DNA from: a virus
Length of the DNA stretch: 64,000 bases
Strand: one strand, 5' to 3'
IMG/VR virus record: IMGVR_UViG_3300045988_071280
Shown here: positions 31,436-63,788 of the stretch, piece after piece
Layout: each line of letters starts with the position of its first letter
Position numbering within the stretch: the stretch's first letter is position 1
The notes under the pieces: generated by a model
What the model saw: only the letters and a program-made list of their open reading frames with translations
What the model was told of the DNA's origin: nothing
Database searches by the model: none
Program-made: the position numbers and the translations under genes

Positions 31436-31877
31436 TATTTACATTATCAAAAAATTCTTTAGTTAAGGAGTAATTTAACATTACTCCTCTAGTTAAAGTT
31501 CCTTTCTTACCTTTCTCATAGAATAATTTAATTTGTGGGTATTTATACTCAGAATCAAAATAATTATACATTGTATTTGTAGAAGTCTTTAGATGATTTA
31601 AAAGTTCTTCTCCTTTAAGTATTTCAATCCCTAAAATCATTCTTTTTCTGGTTGTAAATACGAAAGTAGTACTATTTCTGATAATATCCAATATTACTAA
31701 ATATAAAAAGTAAATATAAATCCTACAACACCATAATCGGAGTTCTGCACCATTTTTATAATTCTTTTTAAGCATTTTTCTAGATACCTCTAACTTCTTT
31801 AAATCGAATTTTTCAAATAATTCAGGTGCGGAGAATGTATAACTAAGAGAAGATATTGTTGTATTATTATATTTCAT
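31416..31877 (-). CDS. hypothetical protein, 153 aa
   Basis: ORF whose ATG overlaps the upstream stop by 1 nt (31877). Confidence 0.65.
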   Translation of the reverse strand: MKYNNTTISSLSYTFSAPELFEKFDLKKLEVSRKMLKKNYKNGAELRLWCCRIYIYFLYLVILDIIRNSTTFVFTTRKRMILGIEILKGEELLNHLKTSTNTMYNYFDSEYKYPQIKLFYEKGKKGTLTRGVMLNYSLTKEFFDNVNSGNKYG

Positions 31878-32566
31878 TACTTCTCTGGTTTAAATGATTT
31901 TCCGTAAGATTTTCTATCAAAGCTAGTCATTACATCTAAAATCCTATTCATATCGTTTTGAGATACTTTTTCCGGAACTCTAGCTCTTTCACATAACCTA
32001 GCCCATTCTAATTTTATATTCTGAGCCATTTGATATGTATTAGGATCTCTAGTTCTAATAGCTTGTTTATATAAATCTGTATAAGCACAATATGCTGCAA
32101 TTGCTTCGGCCTCTTTAGAATTTATATAAGGAAACCCTTCCTCGTCTAGAATTTGTTTCCTATATAAAACCAATACATTCTTATAATCCTTATCAAATAA
32201 TAAAGTATTTTCCCTCATTTGGTAATTTAATAATACTCCATAATCATATAATAAGGATTTATTATATTTCCAGTATTCTATATACCGTTCTATGTAATTA
32301 GTAATAACTTGAGGCCAACGTTGTTTGTTAGATGTTTTTTGAGAGTCTATAAAATTCCCAAACACTGCTTCGATACTAGTAACATCACATGGGAGTTCTA
32401 ATTCCCCGTTTACAACGTCTCCAACAAATTCCTTTATCTCAGTTTGTTTATTTCCTATCTTATCATATGCAATCATTCCTGAGGATTCAAATTCTAATTG
32501 GTCTATATTTAAACCATAATTAGTTTGAATATATGTATATGCTGTGTGGAAGTTTAAATTCTTCAT
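31877..32566 (-). CDS. hypothetical head/neck-module protein, 229 aa
   Basis: ORF in the head-to-tail part of the module. No motif recognised. Confidence 0.65.
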   Translation of the reverse strand: MKNLNFHTAYTYIQTNYGLNIDQLEFESSGMIAYDKIGNKQTEIKEFVGDVVNGELELPCDVTSIEAVFGNFIDSQKTSNKQRWPQVITNYIERYIEYWKYNKSLLYDYGVLLNYQMRENTLLFDKDYKNVLVLYRKQILDEEGFPYINSKEAEAIAAYCAYTDLYKQAIRTRDPNTYQMAQNIKLEWARLCERARVPEKVSQNDMNRILDVMTSFDRKSYGKSFKPEK

Positions 32567-32571
32567 ATATA

Positions 32572-33255
32572 TTAAGCTTTAGCTACTTGATCATTTGGTA
32601 GGTTAGGTGCACTAAGGCTACGGTACCATCGTACCTTCTTTTCTGTAATCCTTCTCTTAATATCATTAGTCAAGAAGTTCATATTAGATACTTCTTCCGC
32701 ATTACAGCAAGTAAATTGTTCTAATTGTCTAGGATCTTTAAATACGGCTATTATAGATAGTGTTTTAATCAACGGAGCATTAAATATATAACAATCATAC
32801 ATCCCATTTCCATTAGGTGCTGTATCTATATAAATATAAGGCTTTCTTCCTAACCACCTATTATATTTATGATACTGATAAGATATATCTGTATAAATTT
32901 TAAACGGAGTATTTCTATCAACAGTTCCAAAATACTGAATTGCATCAACTCCTAAATCTGTAACAATTTGAGGTATTTCTACATGAGGAATATTAGTCTC
33001 TCTAACATTTAAATTAGAATTACATAAATTACAATTCTCTATAGGTTTACAATCTACCTCTAAACAATTAATAGATGTAACTAAATCCTTAACTGGGAGA
33101 AGTCCTTTTAAAGCATATTCTTTTATTATAGTTAACCTCTCATCTATTATATCATCCTCTAACTGTTCAACGGATAAGGATATATTAGATGTAATACCTC
33201 TTAATCCTGATAAAATATCGTTTAAAATCGCAGAGGCTAATTTATTTAATTCCAT
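32572..33255 (-). CDS. hypothetical head/neck-module protein, 227 aa
   Basis: ORF following a strong hairpin. No motif recognised. Confidence 0.65.
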   Translation of the reverse strand: MELNKLASAILNDILSGLRGITSNISLSVEQLEDDIIDERLTIIKEYALKGLLPVKDLVTSINCLEVDCKPIENCNLCNSNLNVRETNIPHVEIPQIVTDLGVDAIQYFGTVDRNTPFKIYTDISYQYHKYNRWLGRKPYIYIDTAPNGNGMYDCYIFNAPLIKTLSIIAVFKDPRQLEQFTCCNAEEVSNMNFLTNDIKRRITEKKVRWYRSLSAPNLPNDQVAKA

Positions 33256-36240: not shown

Positions 36241-36267
36241 TGATCATTAAATGTTTAAATTTAAAAT

Positions 36268-36290
36268 AAAGAGGGTTGTTAGCCCTCTTT
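36268..36290 (-). terminator. intrinsic terminator after the capsid gene
   Basis: Minus strand reads AAAGAGGG-CTAACAA-CCCTCTTT followed by ATTTTAAATTT, starting 8 nt after the TAA at 36298-36300. Confidence 0.7.
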
Positions 36291-36297
36291 ATATTTA

Positions 36298-36433
36298 TTA
36301 TAGCGGATTCTGTCTAAAGATAACAGAACGATAGGGTGCGTATACTGATACCCCACTATAACCCCAGTAAATCATACGACTGCCAGCTACAGGAGTACTT
36401 GCAGTTCCGCCTGAGATACCATCTAATCCCCCA
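36298..36433 (-). CDS. capsid gene exon 5
   Basis: Not in the ORF track (no ATG). It reads (V)GGLDGISGGTASTPVAGSRMIYWGYSGVSVYAPYRSVIFRQNPL* and starts right after the intron-terminal G at 36434. Confidence 0.7.
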
Positions 36434-39400
36434 CGTATTTTTCTTATATTTTCATATAAGCCAGACTATATCATTAACTTATATTCTATTACCGTCTATA
36501 AGTTACCTCCCGTTTCCATATTTAACAATATGTACTCTACTCATTTATTCTCTAATATATTTCTTATTAGATATATTTTCGATAGTCGTTGAACTTTGAA
36601 TAAATATTTAAATAATATTTAAGCCTTAGCTGCTGATTAACATGTAGTAATTAATATGGACAATACTATTTAGCCTTCCAGCAATTAGAGAGGTTTAATT
36701 TTTCTACATATCACTATGTAGCGGCGCTAGAGGAGTAGTTAACGCCAATTACATCAGTTTTTATCATATCACAGCCTTTGAATGTCCAAGATTCAATAGC
36801 TGGTTTTCCGTTAGCTAAATCCGGAGTAAGATCTAGAATAAATCCAAATGCTTGATCAGGATATTCTATATTTAAAGCCTTATCCGGCATAAAGGTTATC
36901 GTATTACCTTGATATTCATAGCTAACAAAAGTATTACCTACTTTAATACCATCAACCGTTTCACCTACTTTCTTCTTAACACCAGAAGATTTACTATACA
37001 TCAAAGTAGCAGTAGGAGTCCATTTTCCAATTTCATCCATTAAGTTATCACCAACCTGATTCCAAAGTAAAGAGTTACAGATTAATACATAATCATTGCC
37101 AGTTAAATTCTTTGCCTTAGAGGTTAAGAAACTTAATGCTTCTTTGAAGTGTGAAGTAAGTAATTGATCGAAAGAGATTAAGTATGCGTATCTTTCTATT
37201 TGAGGAATAATTCCATCGCCTATATACACTATTTATACTTTATATTACTATAAAGATTAGACTATATCTTTAACTTATCATTAATTTAAATACTTAAATA
37301 AATATCCTTTACAAGTTTTTCCTCTTCCTTTTAAAACTCTTCCACAACCTGGATATTGCTTACTACATTCTCCTACAGTTTTAAAAGTTTCTAATAATTC
37401 TCCATCTAAAGAATATCTTCCGACCATTCTTCCGGTATGAAGATACTTAGAAGATTCTTTATTTGGCATGGCTGGAATTTTTTCTATACTCCATTGATAA
37501 CCTTGCCAAGTTCTATTTAATTTAATTGCACTACTAATACCCTTTTTTCCTAAAGCTCTTTCAGCTTCTGCAAAAGAACTATATTCATTTAAATATTCCC
37601 CAGAAAGGGAATATTGATATACAGGAGTATTTTTTAATTGCTTACATTTAGCTCTAGAATAATTACCTTCTAATTCGTAAGATACATATTTATTATTTAT
37701 CAAATATCCAGCTTTTATTGCTCTAATAACATTTCCTGTTGCAGAATTTAATTCTTTAGCAGCATCAGTTATAGATTGATAAAATTTTTCATAATTTCCA
37801 TCTTTATCATATTGATAAACAGGAATTTTATGTTGATCAATAATAAAGTCTTTTGGATTTACTGATTTAAATTTTTCAGTTGTCCATAGATATTTAGCAC
37901 AAGGATGTTTTGTCATTATAGCAATACTTAATGTTGTATAATATCTATCTACAGCTCTTGAAGCATCTGCAATAGATTTATATTCATTTATATATTCTCC
38001 TTCTAAAGAATATTGATATACAGCTTTAGCATTTACTCCTCTATCTCCCCCATTTCCTCCTAAAGCAGTGTTATACACATCCTTTCTTTTTAAAAATTCT
38101 TCATTAACAATAATTGATTCTAAATAATAAGCATCTTCTTCATTATCAAAAACTTGGATAGTTTTTCTAATAAAGGCTTTTACTCCATATTTATTAACAG
38201 CAGCTTGAAATACTGTTTTACTGAATTTATATGTAGAAGGTTGATTTATAACAACCCCACATCCTAAATACCCATCAAAAATATCTGGATTTTCGGTTTG
38301 ATGTACTCCCACATATATTTTTTTATTAATTGTGTTAGTAGTTAGATATACTATATATTTCATATTTAAATTTTTATAAGTTAATTCCCATTTCCAGATA
38401 AAATCTGTACTCCTTGCGGATAGTCGTTGAACGTTCCTTTTGCGTTACTCAAAGAGCCTACTTATCAAAAGGCTTCGCTGCTGATTGTCTTTAAGTAGCA
38501 GATTAAAGATATTCCAGCAATTAAAGAATTTAATTTATCATACTGTTTCCAGTATGCGACCCATGTTTAACATAGACGTTTGTTAAAAGTCCCAGGTCTC
38601 TGCGTTTGCGGGTCCACGATTGTAGCTTTCCCGTTGGCATCCACGTTACTGCGTGCCCAAAGATCGTGTTTAGCTTTAACTTCTAAGAAATTCTCAATAA
38701 GAGTCTTTTCCATTGAAGTCATAGTAAACAATTTTTCACTTCCTTTAGTTTCCGTATCACTAATTTTCAAGAATACATCTTCATTAGCTAAATAAGCTTG
38801 AGATGCATCAATATCATTTCTATGTAAAGTCAAGTAATTACGATGAACCTCCATATTAGATTGATATTTTGTAGCGTTAGTACTTTATATCACTATAAAG
38901 ATTAGACTATATCTTAATCTTATTATATAAGATCTTCTCTGCTTCGGAATTAAATATTCCTACTCCATATTGGATAGTCGTTGAACGTTCTATATTGTAT
39001 TTAAATACTCATATAGCTTCGCTGCTGATTGTCTTTAAATAAGATGTTCCAGCAATTCAGAGAATGTTTCAATATTTATTACTAAATAAAGGGGCCTACA
39101 ATTTAACCCAAAGTCGTGATAATCAAACGGATGAGCATTTGATAAGAAGTGAGTAGTCATACCCGGCTGACATGCGGAAGTATCCAAATATGACTGATAA
39201 TCATTATCAATCAATCGAACAGTATATTCATAGAATTTATTACTCCTCCAAATTGGACGAGAAGTAACATAACACTGTTGATGTGATTTATCTATTACAA
39301 AAATATCATGTTTATCATAGTATTTTTCCTTAAACAGCATCTTAATTTCTGTCCCTCCAATTCCATCACCTTCGGGAACAGCGTAAAAAGGAATACGTTT

Positions 39401-40907
39401 AATGAACTATTCTATTTAAAGAATTTAGACTATATCATTTACTTATTTATGATATTTAAAGATATAATCCTTATAATATTTATCACCCATCTGAATATTT
39501 TTTAATTTACTAGATGGGATATTGTATTTTTCTCTTACATCTTTTATACTATCTAAAGTCTCTATATAATTTCCAAATGTATCATATATATCAATCGTTA
39601 TTCCTTTAGAATAATATTTATCCGGAATATTTATTACTTCTGTGGTTGATATATAATAATCCTTATACCATCCATTATTATATAATATCACATTCTTAAT
39701 TTTATTCCAAGAATGGAGCTTTATAACCTTCATCACCATCTTACCCTTAAATTGTCCTATATAAACTCCATCTTTATTATATACATGATATATTAAATTC
39801 TTATAATTTGCTCTAGTTTTTGGAATAAATTCATCAACCAATTTATTAGATATATAATACTTATCTAATACCAAAGATTGATTTTTAATAGCTTTATTTA
39901 TATCTAAATCTCCAAGATATTTAATACATTCATCCTTATCTAAGAACTCATTTAATAATTTCCCTTTTTTAGTATATAAATAAATAGTATTATTTAATTT
40001 ATTTAAAGAATATTTAATAACATCTATCTCCGGTTCTAATGACCAATAGGAATTAAGAAATTTAGATTTATTACTTATCGCGAATTGAAATTTTTTAGGA
40101 GATTCTCCATAAAAATCATATGCTTCTAAGGAATAATTCCATTTCTTCTCTAATTCTCCAGTTGTATTAAATTGATATAAAGGAGATATGTTATTTACAC
40201 TAGAACAATAATTATACGTATGATCGGAATTTAAAAAAGTATCATTAACTAATTCTAATTCCTTTTCATATGCCTCTTCTGGAGTATTAAATATATATAA
40301 TATAGTCCTCTCAAAAGCCTTCGTCCCATATTTTTTAACAGCATATTGGAACGGAGTTTTTGGATACATAAAAGTACTTGGTTGATTTATATAAACTCCA
40401 GATCCTAAATACCCATCAAAAATATCCGGATTTTCGGTTTGATGTATTCCGATATAAATTTTATTTAATTCTCCAACTTTAGATTTTAAATTTTTAGTAA
40501 GATATACAATATATTTCATAAGTAATTCAGTTTTTCAATCTTATTTATAAGATTTACAGGTTTCCCTTAGTCGTTGAACACTACTTTCATCAAAGTCATG
40601 CTGCTGATTGTCTCTAGTAGCAGTAAAGATTCCCAGCAATTTAAAGAATTTATTGTGAACCTCATTGATTCACATCCACGTCCCACTCAATAGCAAAAGC
40701 ATCAATACTCTTACGTCCGGGCTTAGGAATATCTTGATAAACCATATTTTCAATTCTCTCAGTTAAAGCTGATACAGTATGTCCGGGACATAAAGATGCA
40801 GCTAAACCTACTCTATGAGTAATTCGTCCCAAGAATTGGGAGAAATCATGAAAAGTTCTTGAGCCATTCATATTGGCTCGATTTGAAATGTATTCTGCTA
40901 CAAACAT
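36298..40907 (-). CDS. major capsid protein-like gene, split into 5 exons by 4 group I introns (joined CDS 1452 nt, 483 aa)
   Basis: Colinear ORF fragments are separated by spacers carrying group I P/Q/R/S cores. The exon sum 240+301+288+487+136 = 1452 nt gives one open frame. The capsid identity is inferred from size, from the position after portal and an acidic scaffold-like gene, and from the strong terminator; I did not confirm it from motifs. Confidence 0.6.
36434..36741 (-). mobile_element. group I intron 4 (ORF-less, 308 nt)
   Basis: P 36678-36686, Q 36629-36638, R 36583-36594, S 36464-36472 (plus-strand coordinates). P1 is GGCGT|TAAC...GCGCC with a U-G pair. P2 hairpin is CTACATA-GTGA-TATGTAG and P9 hairpin is CTTATAT-GAAA-ATATAAG. 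The intron ends ...ATACG. Confidence 0.75.
36742..37228 (-). CDS. capsid gene exon 4
   Basis: Corresponds to track ORF 36714-37229 minus its intron-encoded tail (NYSSSAAT*). The split codon GT|T joins it to exon 5. Confidence 0.7.
37229..38586 (-). mobile_element. group I intron 3 carrying a GIY-YIG homing endonuclease ORF
   Basis: P 38514-38522, Q 38477-38486, R 38421-38432, S 37260-37268. The HEG lies between R and S (P8 position). P2-like hairpin is CATACTG-GAAA-CAGTATG and P9 is CTTTATA-GTAA-TATAAAG. The intron ends AAATAG. The 5' junction is uncertain by about 3 nt. Confidence 0.7.
37281..38363 (-). CDS. intron-encoded GIY-YIG homing endonuclease with four NUMOD1/IENR1-like repeats
   Basis: KYIVYLTTNTINKKIYVGVHQT is the GIY...YIG motif. 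Four repeats of the type VYQYSLEGEYINEYKSIADASRA follow. The ORF lies inside the intron core. Confidence 0.85.
   Translation of the reverse strand: MKYIVYLTTNTINKKIYVGVHQTENPDIFDGYLGCGVVINQPSTYKFSKTVFQAAVNKYGVKAFIRKTIQVFDNEEDAYYLESIIVNEEFLKRKDVYNTALGGNGGDRGVNAKAVYQYSLEGEYINEYKSIADASRAVDRYYTTLSIAIMTKHPCAKYLWTTEKFKSVNPKDFIIDQHKIPVYQYDKDGNYEKFYQSITDAAKELNSATGNVIRAIKAGYLINNKYVSYELEGNYSRAKCKQLKNTPVYQYSLSGEYLNEYSSFAEAERALGKKGISSAIKLNRTWQGYQWSIEKIPAMPNKESSKYLHTGRMVGRYSLDGELLETFKTVGECSKQYPGCGRVLKGRGKTCKGYLFKYLN
38587..38874 (-). CDS. capsid gene exon 3
   Basis: Track ORF 38567-38854 extended upstream to the 3' splice site (ACG|CT) and trimmed at ...RPGT. Phase is 2+285+1. Confidence 0.65.
38875..39105 (-). 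mobile_element. group I intron 2 (ORF-less, 231 nt)
   Basis: P 39049-39057, Q 39021-39030, R 38975-38986, S 38905-38913. P1 is GGGT|TAAATTGTAG-GCCC with a U-G pair. P9 is CTTTATA-GTGA-TATAAAG. The intron ends CTAACG. The split codon T|CT keeps the frame. Confidence 0.75.
39106..39406 (-). CDS. capsid gene exon 2
   Basis: Track ORF 39035-39340 extended upstream to FIKRIPFYAVPEGDGIGGTEIK and trimmed at ...YHDFG. 301 nt, phase 0 in and phase 1 out. Confidence 0.65.
39407..40667 (-). mobile_element. group I intron 1 carrying a GIY-YIG homing endonuclease ORF
   Basis: P 40633-40641, Q 40600-40609, R 40568-40579, S 39428-39436. P1 is GTGAAT|C-AATGA-GGTTCAC with a U-G pair. The HEG lies between R and S. 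The 3' end is placed after G39407 because it is the only in-frame G after the TAG at 39407-39409. Confidence 0.7.
39443..40519 (-). CDS. intron-encoded GIY-YIG homing endonuclease with NUMOD1/IENR1-like repeats
   Basis: KYIVYLTKN...KIYIGIHQTENPDIFDGYLG. Four degenerate repeats follow (LYQFNTTGELEKKW..., IYLYTKKGKLLNEF...). The stop is 6 nt from the S element. Confidence 0.85.
   Translation of the reverse strand: MKYIVYLTKNLKSKVGELNKIYIGIHQTENPDIFDGYLGSGVYINQPSTFMYPKTPFQYAVKKYGTKAFERTILYIFNTPEEAYEKELELVNDTFLNSDHTYNYCSSVNNISPLYQFNTTGELEKKWNYSLEAYDFYGESPKKFQFAISNKSKFLNSYWSLEPEIDVIKYSLNKLNNTIYLYTKKGKLLNEFLDKDECIKYLGDLDINKAIKNQSLVLDKYYISNKLVDEFIPKTRANYKNLIYHVYNKDGVYIGQFKGKMVMKVIKLHSWNKIKNVILYNNGWYKDYYISTTEVINIPDKYYSKGITIDIYDTFGNYIETLDSIKDVREKYNIPSSKLKNIQMGDKYYKDYIFKYHK
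40668..40907 (-). CDS. capsid gene exon 1
   Basis: Track ORF 40662-40907 trimmed by two codons (Q, stop), which belong to the intron P1 loop. Confidence 0.65.
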
Positions 40908-61465: not shown

Positions 61466-63788
61466 CATTTATGTTCAATGTGGTTCGTTACTCCACATCC
61501 GGGAATTTACCCAGCTATATGTTTCCATATAGATCAGACTATATCATACATAATTGATCTAGTATAAGGTCTAAAAGATTTTTAGAAAAACATTCAGTTG
61601 ATGTTTCATGTTCCCAATGTTTAGGCAAATATAAATTATTTTTAATTAGTCTTTTTAATTTAGTTTCTAATGTTTTACAATCTATAGGATTTTCAAAAGA
61701 AATAGTTTTAATTACTTCTATTTCATAGCCAAGATTTTTATACTCTTTAAATCTTCTAATTTGTCCGTTTTCTAAAGTATAAGATATTCCCAATTTATAA
61801 AAACTTTCTTCTTCATTATATAATCGTATAAGATAAAATGTATCACTACATTTCCAGTTTTTACATTTTGGACATCCCCTACCCATAAATATATAATCAT
61901 TATCTATAGATACTTCTCCATGTTCTGGACATATTAAAATAGATTTACCTCCGTGTCTACTAGTTTCAGTAATTTTAAAATCATACTTGTCTCCATAAAT
62001 AAATTTAAGTTGATTGTAAAAATACTGTTTTCTATCAACCGCTGCCTCAATCGTAGGCATAAATCCTTTAGATATCAAATTTCCAGGAGTTACAGAAACT
62101 AAGCCAAATTGTGTTTCAAACAGCATTTTTGAGTTCATTCCACTATATTCAGATGCAGGCTTTATATTATTATATATATGCTCTTGTTTTTCTTTCAATA
62201 GATTCATGAAATATTCAGTTTTGTTTATGGCTGCCTTTATTCCAGGAGTATAAAGTAAAACTTGTTTTGCTGTATTAAACGACATTACTCCATATTTGTC
62301 CTTTACTAAAATTGGTTTAGAAAGTCCTTTAAACCTACTTACCACTTCGATATCTTTATTATATAAAGACTCTACTTCCTTTTTAAATTGTTCTTCTGTG
62401 TACTTCATTCTTTTTCAAATTACTTATTAAATTATGTTTCCGTGCTTCGAACTCACTTGAGTCCTATAATTAGTCGTTGAACCTTCCTTTAAAATATTTA
62501 AAGGCTTGGCTGCTGATTAGCATAGATAAATTATCTTTAGCTTCCCAGCAATTCTCGGAATTTACCCAGGACCTGTATATTAATCCTGTAAATCTGCTGT
62601 AGCTAATACTAAACTAAACGGGATATTTTGTCTCGTTGTCATAAATAACCCATTAACAGATAATGTACATTCCTTAGGATTATCCATAGATCTAACTACA
62701 TTTAAATCTACATCCCTAACAATATAAATATCACTAGCAATTTTAACTACAGAGTATCTATGCATTACACCATCTTTTCCTGTCTCTATATATTCTACCT
62801 CATATACAGTAATTAATCTATTATTATATCCATACATTCCAGTATTCCCATCCCAAACAGGAGTTACCTCTAGTCCCCCTAATATTCCGGTAGCAAATTC
62901 CGAATCCTCTGTAGTAGCAGCATTTATTGGTCCGGTAGATCTTATTATATACTTCTGATTATCAGTATAATATGCCTTCTCTAATTCATCTCTTAACTTA
63001 GTTTTATCAGCTTCTGTTAATTCTGAATTATATTTAGATAGGATCTGATCTACTGTCATGTAATATCTACAAACAGCTCTAGGAGATTTATTTAAATAAT
63101 AACTATTAGGATTTTTCTCCACAAAAGTATTAATAGGATTTAATCCTTCTATATCCACATTATTCCCACTTCTAGAAGGTTGTGTTTTAAAATAAAGTGT
63201 TCCGGAGATTAATAAATCCGTCATTAATAATCTAGCTTTTATATCTAAATCAATACTTTTAGATTGAGATAAATATGTTATAATATTCTGTGCTGCTATT
63301 TCATATTCAGAAATAAAATTTTTATCTATATCTTCTTTTAATAACTGTAGAGACTTTTCAGTTAGAGGATCTTTTGTTATAGGAGTATTCTGATCTCCGA
63401 ATTTAGAGAGAATAGTATTATATAAATTACTCATATATAATTCCCTAACTCCATCTAATACTTTAAGCTGTCTCTCTCTATTTATTAAAGATAATGTCTT
63501 TTGATCTTTACATGTAATTTGCATATTTAATGGAGCATCTAGAAACTTCCCAACTAAATAATCTATGTGCTTTTTTATAAGTGGTATAAATTGTATTTGT
63601 GTCGGAGTTCCTATTCCATAATTTTCTTCGAAATGCTTATATTGATCTAAATCCATCTTCCCGTGATAGTAGTTATAAGCTTTTCTTATTGCTACTTTAT
63701 CATATACGAGATCAGAAATAGCTTGGTTGGCCTTCTGAATTTGATAGTCTTTTGATCCTCGTTTGTACTCGACGCTCATCCAAATCAA
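60434..63788 (-). CDS. portal-like protein gene, split by one group I intron (about 745 aa when joined)
   Basis: Two colinear ORFs (402 and 344 aa) are separated by a 1.1-kb spacer with a group I core. The size, the AIRKAYNYYHG-type N-terminal region and the Q-rich coiled-coil C-terminus fit a portal. The identity is inferred, not confirmed. Confidence 0.6.
61466..62582 (-). mobile_element. group I intron carrying a homing-endonuclease-like ORF
   Basis: P 62544-62553, Q 62509-62518, R 62471-62482, S 61537-61545. P1 is CAGGAT|TAATATACAG-GTCCTG with a U-G pair, extendable by ATTTA/TAAAT. P9 is CTATATG-GAAA-CATATAG, followed by an extra hairpin ATGTGG/CCACAT. The intron starts with TAA, which is the track ORF stop. 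Confidence 0.75.
61539..62408 (-). CDS. intron-encoded putative homing endonuclease: zinc ribbon plus GIY-YIG-superfamily (T5orf172-like) C-terminal domain
   Basis: CPEHG...GCPKC zinc-ribbon-like motif, then TFYLIRLYNEEESFYKLGISYT...RRFKEY...E.KLKRLI...TECF. Located between R and S. The TAG stop lies inside the S element. Confidence 0.55.
   Translation of the reverse strand: MKYTEEQFKKEVESLYNKDIEVVSRFKGLSKPILVKDKYGVMSFNTAKQVLLYTPGIKAAINKTEYFMNLLKEKQEHIYNNIKPASEYSGMNSKMLFETQFGLVSVTPGNLISKGFMPTIEAAVDRKQYFYNQLKFIYGDKYDFKITETSRHGGKSILICPEHGEVSIDNDYIFMGRGCPKCKNWKCSDTFYLIRLYNEEESFYKLGISYTLENGQIRRFKEYKNLGYEIEVIKTISFENPIDCKTLETKLKRLIKNNLYLPKHWEHETSTECFSKNLLDLILDQLCMI
62583..63788 (-). CDS. portal gene exon 1
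   Basis: Track ORF 62580-63788 without its stop codon. The last codons ...ADLQD end at the U of the P1 U-G pair. Confidence 0.65.

What the first reader, a model, noticed from the sequence alone, without database searches (positions are those of the whole stretch)
36298..40907. Capsid-like gene broken into five exons by four group I introns
Four track ORFs (40662-40907, 39035-39340, 38567-38854, 36714-37229) plus an unlisted terminal piece (36298-36433) are colinear fragments of one gene. Each spacer carries the canonical group I core on the minus strand: P AATTGCTGG, Q AATCAGCAGC (TGCTG/CAGCA form P4), R GTTCAACGACTA and S A[AT]GATATAGTC (GACTA/TAGTC form P7). I placed 5' splice sites at a U that forms a U-G pair in a P1 hairpin and 3' sites after a G. 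This gives exons of 240+301+288+487+136 = 1452 nt, one uninterrupted 483-aa frame with consistent codon phases (0, 1, 1, 2). Four introns within 4.6 kb of a single essential structural gene is an unusually high density, and it makes capsid production dependent on four ribozyme reactions.
Basis: partly seen in the sequence, partly recalled or inferred. Interest (0 to 1): 0.7.

Follow-up and report, generated by a model that had tools for sequence, protein, structure and literature searches.

The report
Four self-splicing introns split capsid gene
The major capsid gene of this crAss-like gut phage really is cut into five pieces by four self-splicing group I introns, but this layout has already been described for the phage group, so it is a well-mapped example and not a discovery.

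Summary
The finding is real. On the minus strand, 40907-36298 is one crAss-type major capsid protein (MCP) gene interrupted by four group I introns.

- **Intron evidence:** Rfam RF00028 scores two introns above its gathering score (87 and 70 bits). The other two are split by homing-endonuclease ORFs and give partial hits.
- **Splice sites:** Each has a U.G pair in P1, a terminal G, and 10-13 bp of combined P1+P10 guide pairing. The joined protein aligns there without gaps to uninterrupted homologues.
- **Junction 3 is misplaced.** The 5' splice site is 38594|38593, not 38587. The product is about 481 aa, not 483.
- **Odd 3' end of intron 3:** the only split that reproduces the relatives' RPVYIGDG needs a terminal A. 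The canonical in-frame alternative drops one codon. This junction is identical in the window and 17 other contigs.
- **Prior work:** Yutin et al. 2021 describe Zeta-group crAss-like phages with up to 14 introns per genome, and an MCP split into five fragments.
- **Relatives:** close relatives carry up to eight MCP introns at nine or more sites.
- **Portal gene:** a fifth intron sits in the window's portal gene.

Verdict: a new member of a known kind, of modest interest.

The parts
40668..40907 (-). MCP exon 1 (240 nt, aa 1-80, ATG at 40907)
   Evidence: ORF. It aligns without gaps to uninterrupted homologues up to ...DVDVN|FIKR. Against close relatives, 96 codons differ synonymously and 1 non-synonymously.
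39407..40667 (-). Group I intron 1 (1261 nt), carrying an endonuclease ORF. It has no P2 and no P7.1/P7.2.
   Evidence: Partial RF00028 hit of 33.7 bits at 40706-40507. Exact P, Q, R and S elements. P1 is GUGAAU 40673-40668 with GUUCAC 40660-40655. The 6-bp P10 is UUCAUU/AAUGAG, and the terminal base is G39407. P3, P4, P5, P6, P7 and P9 were verified as complementary. Two candidate P8 helices exist: a local hairpin at 40554-40537, and a long-range pair 40524-40518 with 39446-39440 that brackets the ORF.
39443..40519 (-). Intron 1 ORF, 358 aa: homing-endonuclease-like, with a GIY-YIG-like N-terminus
   Evidence: PHROG phrog_314 'homing endonuclease', E = 9e-14. It is 31% identical to the intron 3 ORF overall (E = 8e-41), and visibly more similar over about the first 100 residues. 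No Pfam or NCBIfam hit.
39106..39406 (-). MCP exon 2 (301 nt)
   Evidence: Against close relatives, 413 codons differ synonymously and 128 non-synonymously.
38875..39105 (-). Group I intron 2 (231 nt, no ORF; subgroup IA-like with P7.1/P7.2)
   Evidence: RF00028 87.4 bits over the full model 1-253. P1 is GGGU 39109-39106 with GCCC 39095-39092. The 6-bp P10 is CUACAA/UUGUAG, and the terminal base is G38875. P2-P9 were verified.
38594..38874 (-).
   Evidence: The alignment to intron-less L002 stops at 38594. Relative P0006 stops matching right after ...RP. P1 GACCU 38598-38594 pairs with GGGUC 38562-38558.
37230..38593 (-). Group I intron 3 (1364 nt), carrying an endonuclease ORF in the P8 loop. 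The exact 3' end is uncertain, between 37230 and 37227.
   Evidence: RF00028 partial hits of 42.1 bits (38538-38383) and 27.7 bits (37272-37240). The ORF-less 298-nt version of the same intron in L020 scores 76.2 bits over the full model. P1, P2, P3, P4, P5, P7, P7.2, P8 (38383-38376 with 37278-37271) and P9 were verified. The 3' junction is non-canonical.
37281..38363 (-). Intron 3 ORF, 360 aa: I-TevI-like (GIY-YIG) endonuclease with three NUMOD1 DNA-binding repeats
   Evidence: Pfam NUMOD1 79 bits against a cut-off of 22.8, three stretches. TIGR01453 'group I intron endonuclease' 30.7 bits, below its cut-off of 56, but covering profile positions 4-213 of 215. phrog_314, E = 2.5e-28.
36742..37229 (-). 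MCP exon 4 (488 nt if it starts at G37229, giving Val-Tyr-Ile; 485 nt if it starts at U37226)
   Evidence: Uninterrupted relatives read AGA CCC GTT TAT ATT = RPVYI. The 4-bp P10 GUGU/ACAU abuts P1. Against close relatives, 376 codons differ synonymously and 103 non-synonymously.
36434..36741 (-). Group I intron 4 (308 nt, no ORF)
   Evidence: RF00028 70.0 bits over the full model. P1 is GGCGU 36746-36742 with GCGCC 36727-36723. P10 is 7 bp, and the terminal base is G36434. P2, P3, P4, P7, P8 and P9 were verified.
36298..36433 (-). MCP exon 5 (136 nt including the TAA stop at 36300-36298)
   Evidence: It aligns to the C-termini of homologues...GVGGLDG...YAPYRSVIFRQ.
36266..36292 (-). Terminator-like hairpin followed by a T-run, 5 nt after the MCP stop codon
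   Evidence: 10-bp stem ATAAAGAGGG...CCCTCTTTAT followed by TTTAAATTTA. The only other minus-strand terminator-like match in the region is the P1 hairpin of intron 2.

Best explanation
**What it is.** Minus strand 40907-36298 is the major capsid protein (HK97-type, crAss family) gene of a large crAss-like (Crassvirales) gut phage. The phage is most likely of the intron-rich Zeta group. The gene is transcribed as one precursor.

**How it works.** Four group I ribozymes must each remove themselves by the standard two-step reaction:
1. A free guanosine attacks after the U of the U.G pair in P1.
2. The freed 5' exon then attacks after the intron's last nucleotide, positioned by P10.

This yields a 1446-nt mRNA that encodes a 481-aa capsid protein.

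**Mobility.** Introns 1 and 3 carry paralogous I-TevI-like (GIY-YIG/NUMOD) homing endonuclease genes in the P8 region. Introns 2 and 4 are ORF-less copies. The introns are mobile selfish elements that come and go at nine or more hot spots in this gene among near-identical phages. They are tolerated because splicing is exact.

**Shown versus inferred.**
- Shown: gene identity, the ribozyme cores, the guide pairings, colinearity with intron-less homologues, purifying selection on all exons, and presence/absence polymorphism.
- Inferred: that splicing happens, that it is autonomous, and the exact 3' junction of intron 3.
For: - **Rfam RF00028:** 87.4 and 70.0 bits for introns 2 and 4. Partial hits for the ORF-split introns 1 and 3. 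The ORF-less homologue of intron 3 in L020 scores 76.2 bits.
- **Core elements:** exact P, Q, R and S elements occur once per spacer; Q has 5 copies against 0.03 expected.
- **Helices:** P1-P9 verified as complementary in all four introns.
- **Guide pairing:** each intron's guide sequence best fits its own exon pair, with P1+P10 of 13, 10, 9 and 13 bp. The null 99th percentile is 9 bp, and cross-combinations give 7 bp or less.
- **Capsid identity:** the joined protein hits Crass_capsid at 42.3 bits across junctions 2 and 3. It aligns end to end with the uninterrupted P0001 (482 aa, 73% identity) and many 470-476-aa homologues.
- **Selection:** synonymous codon differences outnumber non-synonymous ones in every exon against close relatives.
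- **Polymorphism:** relatives carry or lack introns at the same sites.
- **Endonucleases:**
- **Phage context:** crAss ring proteins and a portal gene in the window. Relatives' contigs reach 183 kb.
- **Literature:** PMC7886860.
Against: - No RNA data, so splicing is inferred from sequence only.
- Intron 3 has no split that combines U(-1), a terminal G and the homologues' protein sequence. At least one rule is bent there, or a codon is lost.
- Intron 1 has only a 33.7-bit partial Rfam hit. It lacks P2 and P7.1/P7.2, and its P8 is ambiguous.
- The Zeta-group assignment rests on contig sizes and intron load, not on a phylogeny.
Confidence: 0.9

Rival explanations
1. One reading: splicing at 38587|37228 gives a 483-aa protein with a two-residue insertion (RPGTLYIGDG).
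For: GACUU 38591-38587 can also pair with the guide GGGUC, giving 5 bp with two G.U pairs. The intron would end in G37229, and the frame stays open.
Against: - All 16 aligned homologues lack the two extra residues.
- Near-identical relatives without this intron read RPVYIGDG.
- The 297/298-nt variants of the same intron start GGGAAAUUUU or GGGAAAAUUUU. They have no GACUU and a different length, so the read-through is not conserved.
- There is no P10.
- The homologous L001 intron splices right after CCU.
Confidence: 0.04
2. Intron 3 splices canonically (U38594, terminal G37227) and the mature capsid protein simply lacks Val275. It would be 480 aa and read RPYIGDG.
For: This is the only in-frame solution that keeps both U(-1) and a terminal G (frame analysis of the sequence). 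The G-binding G-C pair of P7 is the same as in the other introns, which argues that a terminal G is still required.
Against: - No homologue lacks this residue.
- G37227 would sit inside the GUGU/ACAY helix, which abuts P1 exactly as P10 does in introns 1, 2 and 4.
- The 3' exon UAUAUA has no P10 partner.
Confidence: 0.3
3. The gene is a decaying pseudogene, or an assembly chimera, in a defective phage. The fragments are not expressed as one protein.
For: Canonical rules applied to intron 3 (U38594 with terminal G37229) would give a frameshift and a UAG stop (sequence; P10 test). There is no expression data.
Against: - Every exon shows an excess of synonymous change.
- The same exon/intron layout recurs in many independent assemblies from different samples.
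- All frames are intact and the gene ends with a terminator-like hairpin.
- No second MCP gene was seen among the ORFs examined in the window.
Confidence: 0.03
4. The pieces are joined at the protein level (inteins or trans-splicing) or used as separate polypeptides, and not by RNA splicing.
For: crAss-like phages of the same groups do carry inteins in other genes (PMC7886860).
Against: - The exons lie in different frames, and each exon ORF runs into a stop codon shortly after its splice site.
- Pfam found no Hint or intein domain in the two spacer ORFs.
- Each spacer has a complete group I core.
Confidence: 0.01

Closest known systems
Intron-rich MCP genes of Zeta-group (and Delta-group) crAss-like phages (Yutin et al. 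2021, Nat Commun 12:1044, PMC7886860; repeated in the Crassvirales review PMC10136315)
   Same: The same gene (crAss MCP), the same kind of phage (145-192 kb human-gut genomes) and the same architecture. The paper describes the 'MCP ORF split into five fragments' by four spacers with group I intron endonuclease domains, and up to 14 introns per genome. Close relatives of the window lie on gut contigs of 144-183 kb, with ENA accession numbers of the same style as that study's contigs.
   Different: That work found introns through their endonuclease protein domains and did not map ribozyme structures or splice sites. Here two of the four introns have no ORF (three of four spacers had domains in their example). 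The junctions are mapped to the nucleotide, and one junction is non-canonical. I could not test whether the window is one of their genomes.
Phage T4 td / nrdB / sunY group IA2 introns with I-TevI / I-TevII (from my own knowledge; review PMC2988022 appeared but was not read)
   Same: Subgroup IA-like cores with P7.1/P7.2, GIY-YIG-type endonuclease ORFs looped out of the ribozyme, insertion in conserved essential genes, and homing with presence/absence polymorphism among related phages.
   Different: T4 has one intron per gene, and in metabolic genes. Here there are four in a single structural gene (up to eight in relatives), with ORF-plus and ORF-less versions at the same site.
Staphylococcus phage Twort orf142 with three group I introns (Landthaler and Shub 1999, from memory) and Cluster J mycobacteriophage capsid/tail gene introns (PMC3706429; title only, seen)
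   Same: Several self-splicing group I introns in one phage gene (Twort), and an intron interrupting a capsid gene (Cluster J, per that paper's title).
   Different: Fewer introns per gene, unrelated phages and hosts, and splicing there was reported from experiments (Twort from memory; Cluster J per its title).
PhiPA3 intron endonuclease gp210 (PMC11620839; abstract seen)
   Same: [quoted passage not shown] Its abstract reports that the endonuclease helps the phage compete with a co-infecting virus. That offers a possible benefit for the endonuclease-bearing MCP introns here.
   Different: A different phage and gene. No competition data exist for crAss-like phages, so the link is only a hypothesis.

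Membership tests
Group I catalytic intron (Rfam RF00028) | Covariance-model score at or above the gathering score (50 bits) | tested here: met
   Met outright for intron 2 (87.4 bits) and intron 4 (70.0 bits). Intron 3 is split by its ORF into hits of 42.1 and 27.7 bits, and its ORF-less homologue in L020 scores 76.2 bits. Intron 1 has only a 33.7-bit partial hit, so on this criterion alone it is inconclusive.
Group I catalytic intron (Rfam RF00028) | Conserved core: P3-P8 and P4-P6 domains with P/Q/R/S elements, and a P7 helix with a G-C guanosine-binding pair | tested here: met
   All four introns have exact P, Q, R and S elements. P3, P4, P7 (GACUA/UAGUC), P8 and P9 were verified as complementary in each.
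Group I catalytic intron (Rfam RF00028) | 5' splice site after a U that forms a U.G wobble in P1 with an internal guide sequence | tested here: met
   P1 has 7, 4, 5 and 6 bp, each with a terminal U.G, in introns 1-4. Each guide matches its own exons best. Intron-plus alleles at site 274 have CCU where intron-less alleles have CCC.
Group I catalytic intron (Rfam RF00028) | The last intron nucleotide is G (omega-G), and the 3' exon is aligned by P10 | tested here: inconclusive
   Met for introns 1, 2 and 4: terminal G with a P10 of 6, 6 and 7 bp. For intron 3, the junction that homology and P10 predict has a terminal A (A37230). A terminal-G solution costs one codon or the reading frame.
Group I catalytic intron (Rfam RF00028) | Guanosine-dependent self-splicing activity | not testable with these tools
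   This needs in vitro transcription and splicing, or RNA-seq. No spliced copy was found in the assemblies searched.
Crassvirus major capsid protein (Pfam PF23898) | Profile score above the curated cut-off and full-length colinearity with family members | tested here: met
   42.3 bits against a cut-off of 27. 144 homologues, most of those listed carrying a precomputed PF23898 hit, and many cover 99-100% of the query. The alignment is gap-free at junctions 1, 2 and 4, and at junction 3 after correction.
GIY-YIG (I-TevI-like) intron homing endonuclease (TIGR01453; NUMOD1 PF07453) | GIY-YIG catalytic domain plus NUMOD-type DNA-binding modules, encoded inside the intron | tested here: inconclusive
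   Intron 3 ORF: NUMOD1 at 79 bits, above the cut-off of 22.8. TIGR01453 reaches only 30.7 bits against a cut-off of 56. Intron 1 ORF: only phrog_314 (E = 9e-14) and paralogy to the intron 3 ORF. There is no PDB sequence match. Endonuclease activity was not testable.
Zeta group of crAss-like phages (Yutin et al. 2021) | Placement in the Zeta clade by phylogeny of conserved genes, and a 145-192 kb genome | not tested
   Indirect evidence only. Near-identical relatives sit on contigs of 144-183 kb. The intron load is very high. GenBank phages have almost no homologues: 2 tblastn hits. No phylogeny was made.

The most novel reading that the evidence does not exclude
**The claim.** Intron 3, and its copies in 17 other contigs, would be a natural group I intron that ligates exons after a terminal adenosine instead of the near-universal omega-G, or that cleaves after a G instead of the U of the U.G pair.

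**Why it is not excluded.**
- The only exon join that reproduces the conserved RPVYIGDG of intron-less relatives is CCU|...A|GUG, or equivalently CCUG|...G|UG.
- That join is the one positioned by a P10 helix abutting P1.
- The junction sequence is invariant in an essential gene that is under purifying selection.

**A second point.** The same clade shows an MCP gene with eight group I introns and micro-exons of 18-21 nt. That is more than the five fragments reported so far.
Probability: 0.35. Interest if true: 0.55.

Novelty: new member of a known kind. Interest (0 to 1): 0.33.

Why it matters
**For annotation.** It gives a correct 481-aa capsid protein for a genome on which gene callers produce only fragments. 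All the close relatives in the protein database appear as 283-391-aa pieces.

**For intron biology.**
- It gives nucleotide-level splice sites and ribozyme structures for a phage clade whose intron load has so far been inferred mainly from endonuclease domains.
- ORF-less introns, half of those here, are missed by that approach. Published intron counts for these phages are therefore probably underestimates.
- The clade offers a natural series of alleles with zero to eight introns in one essential late gene. That series could be used to test whether such introns cost the phage anything, or help it compete through their endonucleases.

**The one surprise.** The 3' junction of intron 3 appears to break the terminal-G rule. 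This can be tested directly by RT-PCR.

Tried and rejected
- **Nucleotide search (megablast) of the 4.8 kb region against GenBank phages.** Only a 38-nt match, to the 3' core of a similar intron next to an 'endonuclease' gene in bajarodcaudo virus 1. No close annotated relative exists.
- **Protein-against-DNA search (tblastn) of the joined protein against GenBank phages.** Two unannotated gut phage records at 40-46% identity.
- **PDB sequence search with the intron 3 endonuclease.** Nothing meaningful.
- **NCBIfam and Pfam on the intron 1 ORF and the portal-intron ORF.** No hits.
- **tRNA scan of the window.** None found, so there is no sign of suppressor-tRNA recoding here, and none is needed for this gene.
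- **Search for an assembled spliced transcript or an intron-less allele with the window's exon flanks** (pattern CGCAGAGACCT-N0-3-TATATAGGCGA). No match in viral contigs or metagenome contigs.
- **Search for a canonical variant of the intron 3 tail** (an extra G, or a terminal G). Every true homologue has the same AAAUAGUGUAUAUAGG. Matches of other lengths were unrelated sequences.
- **Sigma-70 promoter scan.** Fewer matches than in shuffled sequence, so it is uninformative for this phage.
- **Rejected readings.** The reasons are under the rival explanations.
Full report
**1.

All four listed ORFs are present on the minus strand.
- P AATTGCTGG.
- Q AATCAGCAGC: 5 exact copies in 64 kb against 0.03 expected.
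- R GTTCAACGACTA.
- S GATATAGTC.

The fifth copy of each lies in another intron near 62 kb.

Rfam RF00028 scores 39115-38883 at 87.4 bits and 36751-36443 at 70.0 bits, against a gathering score of 50. The two long spacers are interrupted by ORFs, so they give partial hits:
- Intron 3: 38538-38383 (42.1 bits) plus 37272-37240 (27.7 bits).
- Intron 1: 40706-40507 (33.7 bits).

An ORF-less 298-nt copy of intron 3 in a relative (L020) scores 76.2 bits over the whole model.

**2. What the gene is**

The joined protein matches Pfam Crass_capsid (PF23898) at 42.3 bits, above the cut-off of 27. The match covers residues 95-381 and so runs across two junctions. It also matches a PHROG major head protein family.

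A search of the large protein collection gave 144 homologues, most of those listed carrying a precomputed PF23898 hit. They include P0001, which is uninterrupted (482 aa, 73% identity, 100% coverage), and dozens of 470-476-aa proteins at about 45% identity. The closest relatives (72-79% identity) appear only as 283-391-aa fragments, because their genes are interrupted too.

The neighbourhood is crAss-like. Tail ring proteins 1 and 2 lie at 31877-33255, and a P22-type portal gene lies at 63788-60434. A terminator-like hairpin (36292-36266) follows the stop codon.

**3. Splice sites**

I checked each junction in three ways:
- protein alignment to uninterrupted homologues;
- DNA alignment to the intron-less gene in L002;
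- the P1 and P10 guide pairings.

There is no gap against any homologue. Each has U at -1 in a U.G pair and a terminal G. P1+P10 pairing is 13, 10 and 13 bp. In a cross-test, each intron's guide fits its own exon pair best (other pairs give 7 bp or less; the null 99th percentile is 9 bp).

- Relatives that are 93-97% identical and uninterrupted at this point read AGA CCC GTT TAT ATT, which is RPVYI.
- The guide GGGUC (38562-38558) sits directly before P2 and pairs better with GACCU (38598-38594).
- The homologous intron in L001 splices right after CCU, with an 8-bp P10.
- Variants of the window's intron start GGGACUUUU, GGGAAAUUUU or GGGAAAAUUUU.

So the 5' splice site is 38594|38593.

*The 3' side of intron 3 is odd.* Reproducing RPVYIGDG requires exon 4 to start at G37229, which makes the last intron base A37230. 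The helix GUGU/ACAU supports this start. It is ACAC in the 298-nt variants, so G.U becomes G-C. It abuts P1 exactly as P10 does in the other three introns. Three other readings are possible:
- A one-base shift of both sites gives the same product but puts a G at -1.
- The canonical pair U38594 with terminal G37229 gives a frameshift and a UAG stop.
- The only canonical in-frame choice, terminal G37227, deletes Val275, which no homologue lacks.

A systematic scan found a homology-consistent U/terminal-G split at every other resolvable junction type except the 242-nt site-180 variant (L023-L028), where the alignment was poorer, and this site-274 intron type. The junction sequence AAAGUAUAAAUAGUGUAUAUAGG is identical in the window, ten IMG/VR contigs and seven metagenome contigs. 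No variant with an extra G or a terminal G was found. I cannot resolve this without RNA data.

My working model is exons of 240+301+281+488+136 = 1446 nt, giving 481 aa, with phases 0, 1, 0, 2.

**4. Anatomy of the introns**

P1 to P9 were checked for complementarity at stated coordinates.
- Introns 2, 3 and 4 have P2. Hairpins between P7 and P3' (P7.1/P7.2) are clear in intron 2, only P7.2 verified in intron 3 (P7.1 paired 2 of 4), and untested in intron 4. Those features mark subgroup IA, like the T4 introns. This classification is by inspection only.
- Intron 1 lacks P2 and P7.1/P7.2.
- In intron 3 the 360-aa ORF fills the P8 loop (P8 is 38383-38376 with 37278-37271).
- In intron 1 the 358-aa ORF lies after a local P8-like hairpin and is also bracketed by a long-range 7-bp pair. 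Its P8 is therefore ambiguous.

The two ORFs are paralogues, 31% identical overall and more similar over about the first 100 residues.
- The intron 3 ORF has three NUMOD1 repeats, and a sub-threshold but near full-length match to TIGR01453, 'group I intron endonuclease'.
- Both ORFs match PHROG 314, 'homing endonuclease'.

**5. Evidence that the gene is live and the introns are mobile**

Against close relatives, codons with synonymous differences outnumber those with non-synonymous differences in every exon. In exon 1 the counts are 96 against 1.

Exon maps of 28 related loci show introns present or absent at nine or more sites: after aa 80, 180, 274 (two types, 2 nt apart), 280, 385, 437, 455 and about 462. 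A further site lies near aa 395 in P0002. Most sites exist in both ORF-containing and ORF-less versions. For example, site 180 has introns of 231, 242 or 1101 nt, and site 437 of 308 or about 1370 nt. That is the pattern expected of the homing cycle.

The window's intron 3 is the only ORF-bearing copy among the carriers whose intron length I checked. A 164-kb gut contig (OGFG01000016.1) is 97-98.7% identical to the window around exons 4 and 5. It has about 2 kb where the window's 308-nt intron 4 lies.

**6. How it most likely works**

The precursor mRNA must undergo four independent guanosine-initiated self-splicing reactions before a capsid protein can be made. The general mechanism is as reviewed in PMC3679873. 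The introns persist because they splice accurately, and because their endonucleases copy them into intron-less alleles during co-infection.

Whether they also benefit the phage is untested here. One possible benefit is endonuclease-mediated interference with co-infecting relatives, as reported for PhiPA3 (PMC11620839).

**7. Comparison with what is known**

Yutin et al. 2021 (PMC7886860) report the following:
- Delta-group crAss-like phages typically have group I introns in MCP, PolB and primase.
- Zeta-group genomes (145-192 kb) have up to 14 introns and 3 inteins.
- As their example, a Zeta MCP is 'split into five fragments', with three of four spacers encoding intron-type domains.

A 2023 review and a 2025 Zeta-phage paper repeat this without RNA-level analysis.

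The window is therefore another instance of a published phenomenon. This analysis adds nucleotide-level junctions, ribozyme structures, the recognition of ORF-less introns (which a domain search cannot see), and the anomalous junction. The Zeta assignment is inferred from relatives' contig sizes of 144-183 kb. It was not tested by phylogeny.

**8. Verdict**

One splice site is misplaced, and the claim of rarity is overstated for this clade. It is a new member of a known kind, of modest interest. Two things raise the interest slightly: the possibly non-canonical terminal nucleotide of intron 3, and relatives with eight introns in the same gene.

Noticed in passing
window 62582-61466 (minus strand); flanking ORFs 63788-62580 and 61468-60434: A fifth group I intron (about 1117 nt) splits the portal gene. 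It has exact P, Q, R and S elements, P1 CAGGAU/GUCCUG (62588-62583 with 62572-62567), a terminal G at 61466, and a P10 UGUAUA/UAUACA after a one-base offset. Joining 63788-62583 to 61465-60434 gives a 745-aa protein. Its P22_portal match then spans the junction: residues 386-684 at 34.9 bits, against 26.5 bits for the C-terminal half alone.
   Followed up: partly
window 62408-61539 (minus strand): The portal intron carries a 289-aa ORF with no Pfam or NCBIfam hit. By eye, its C-terminal part looks GIY-YIG-like (FYLIRLYN...FYKLGIS). Its stop codon TAG lies inside the S element GAUAUAGUC, so the end of the ORF overlaps the P7 strand of the ribozyme.
   Followed up: partly
L028 4482-10287 (IMGVR_UViG_3300045988_084568): A 93-100% identical MCP gene in a relative carries eight group I introns and so has nine exons. 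Six score 68-103 bits on RF00028. Two are ORF-bearing and give partial hits. The exons include micro-exons of about 18 nt (aa 275-280, between two adjacent introns) and about 21 nt (aa 456-462). This exceeds the five fragments described in the literature I read.
   Followed up: partly
window 37233-37270; GenBank PQ006092.1 56415-56453: The only nucleotide-search (megablast) match of the region in GenBank phages is a 38-nt, 97% identical stretch. It covers the 3' core (S element plus P9) of intron 3 and lies next to an annotated 'endonuclease' in bajarodcaudo virus 1, from rodent faeces. The same intron family therefore probably occurs in an otherwise unrelated record.
   Followed up: no
L003 1-114 and L004 1-72 (relatives, about 8 kb upstream of their MCP genes): A reverse-transcriptase gene (Pfam RVT_1) sits in the structural block of relatives. 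This fits the diversity-generating retroelement reported for Zeta crAss-like phage Lera (PMC12386605). I did not look for it in the window.
   Followed up: no
window 40554-40537 compared with 38934-38916: Intron 1 contains a local hairpin (AAUCUUAU...AUAAGAUU) nearly identical to the P8 of intron 2. It lies upstream of the endonuclease ORF. A second, long-range P8-like pair brackets the ORF. This may be a trace of how the ORF was inserted.
   Followed up: no
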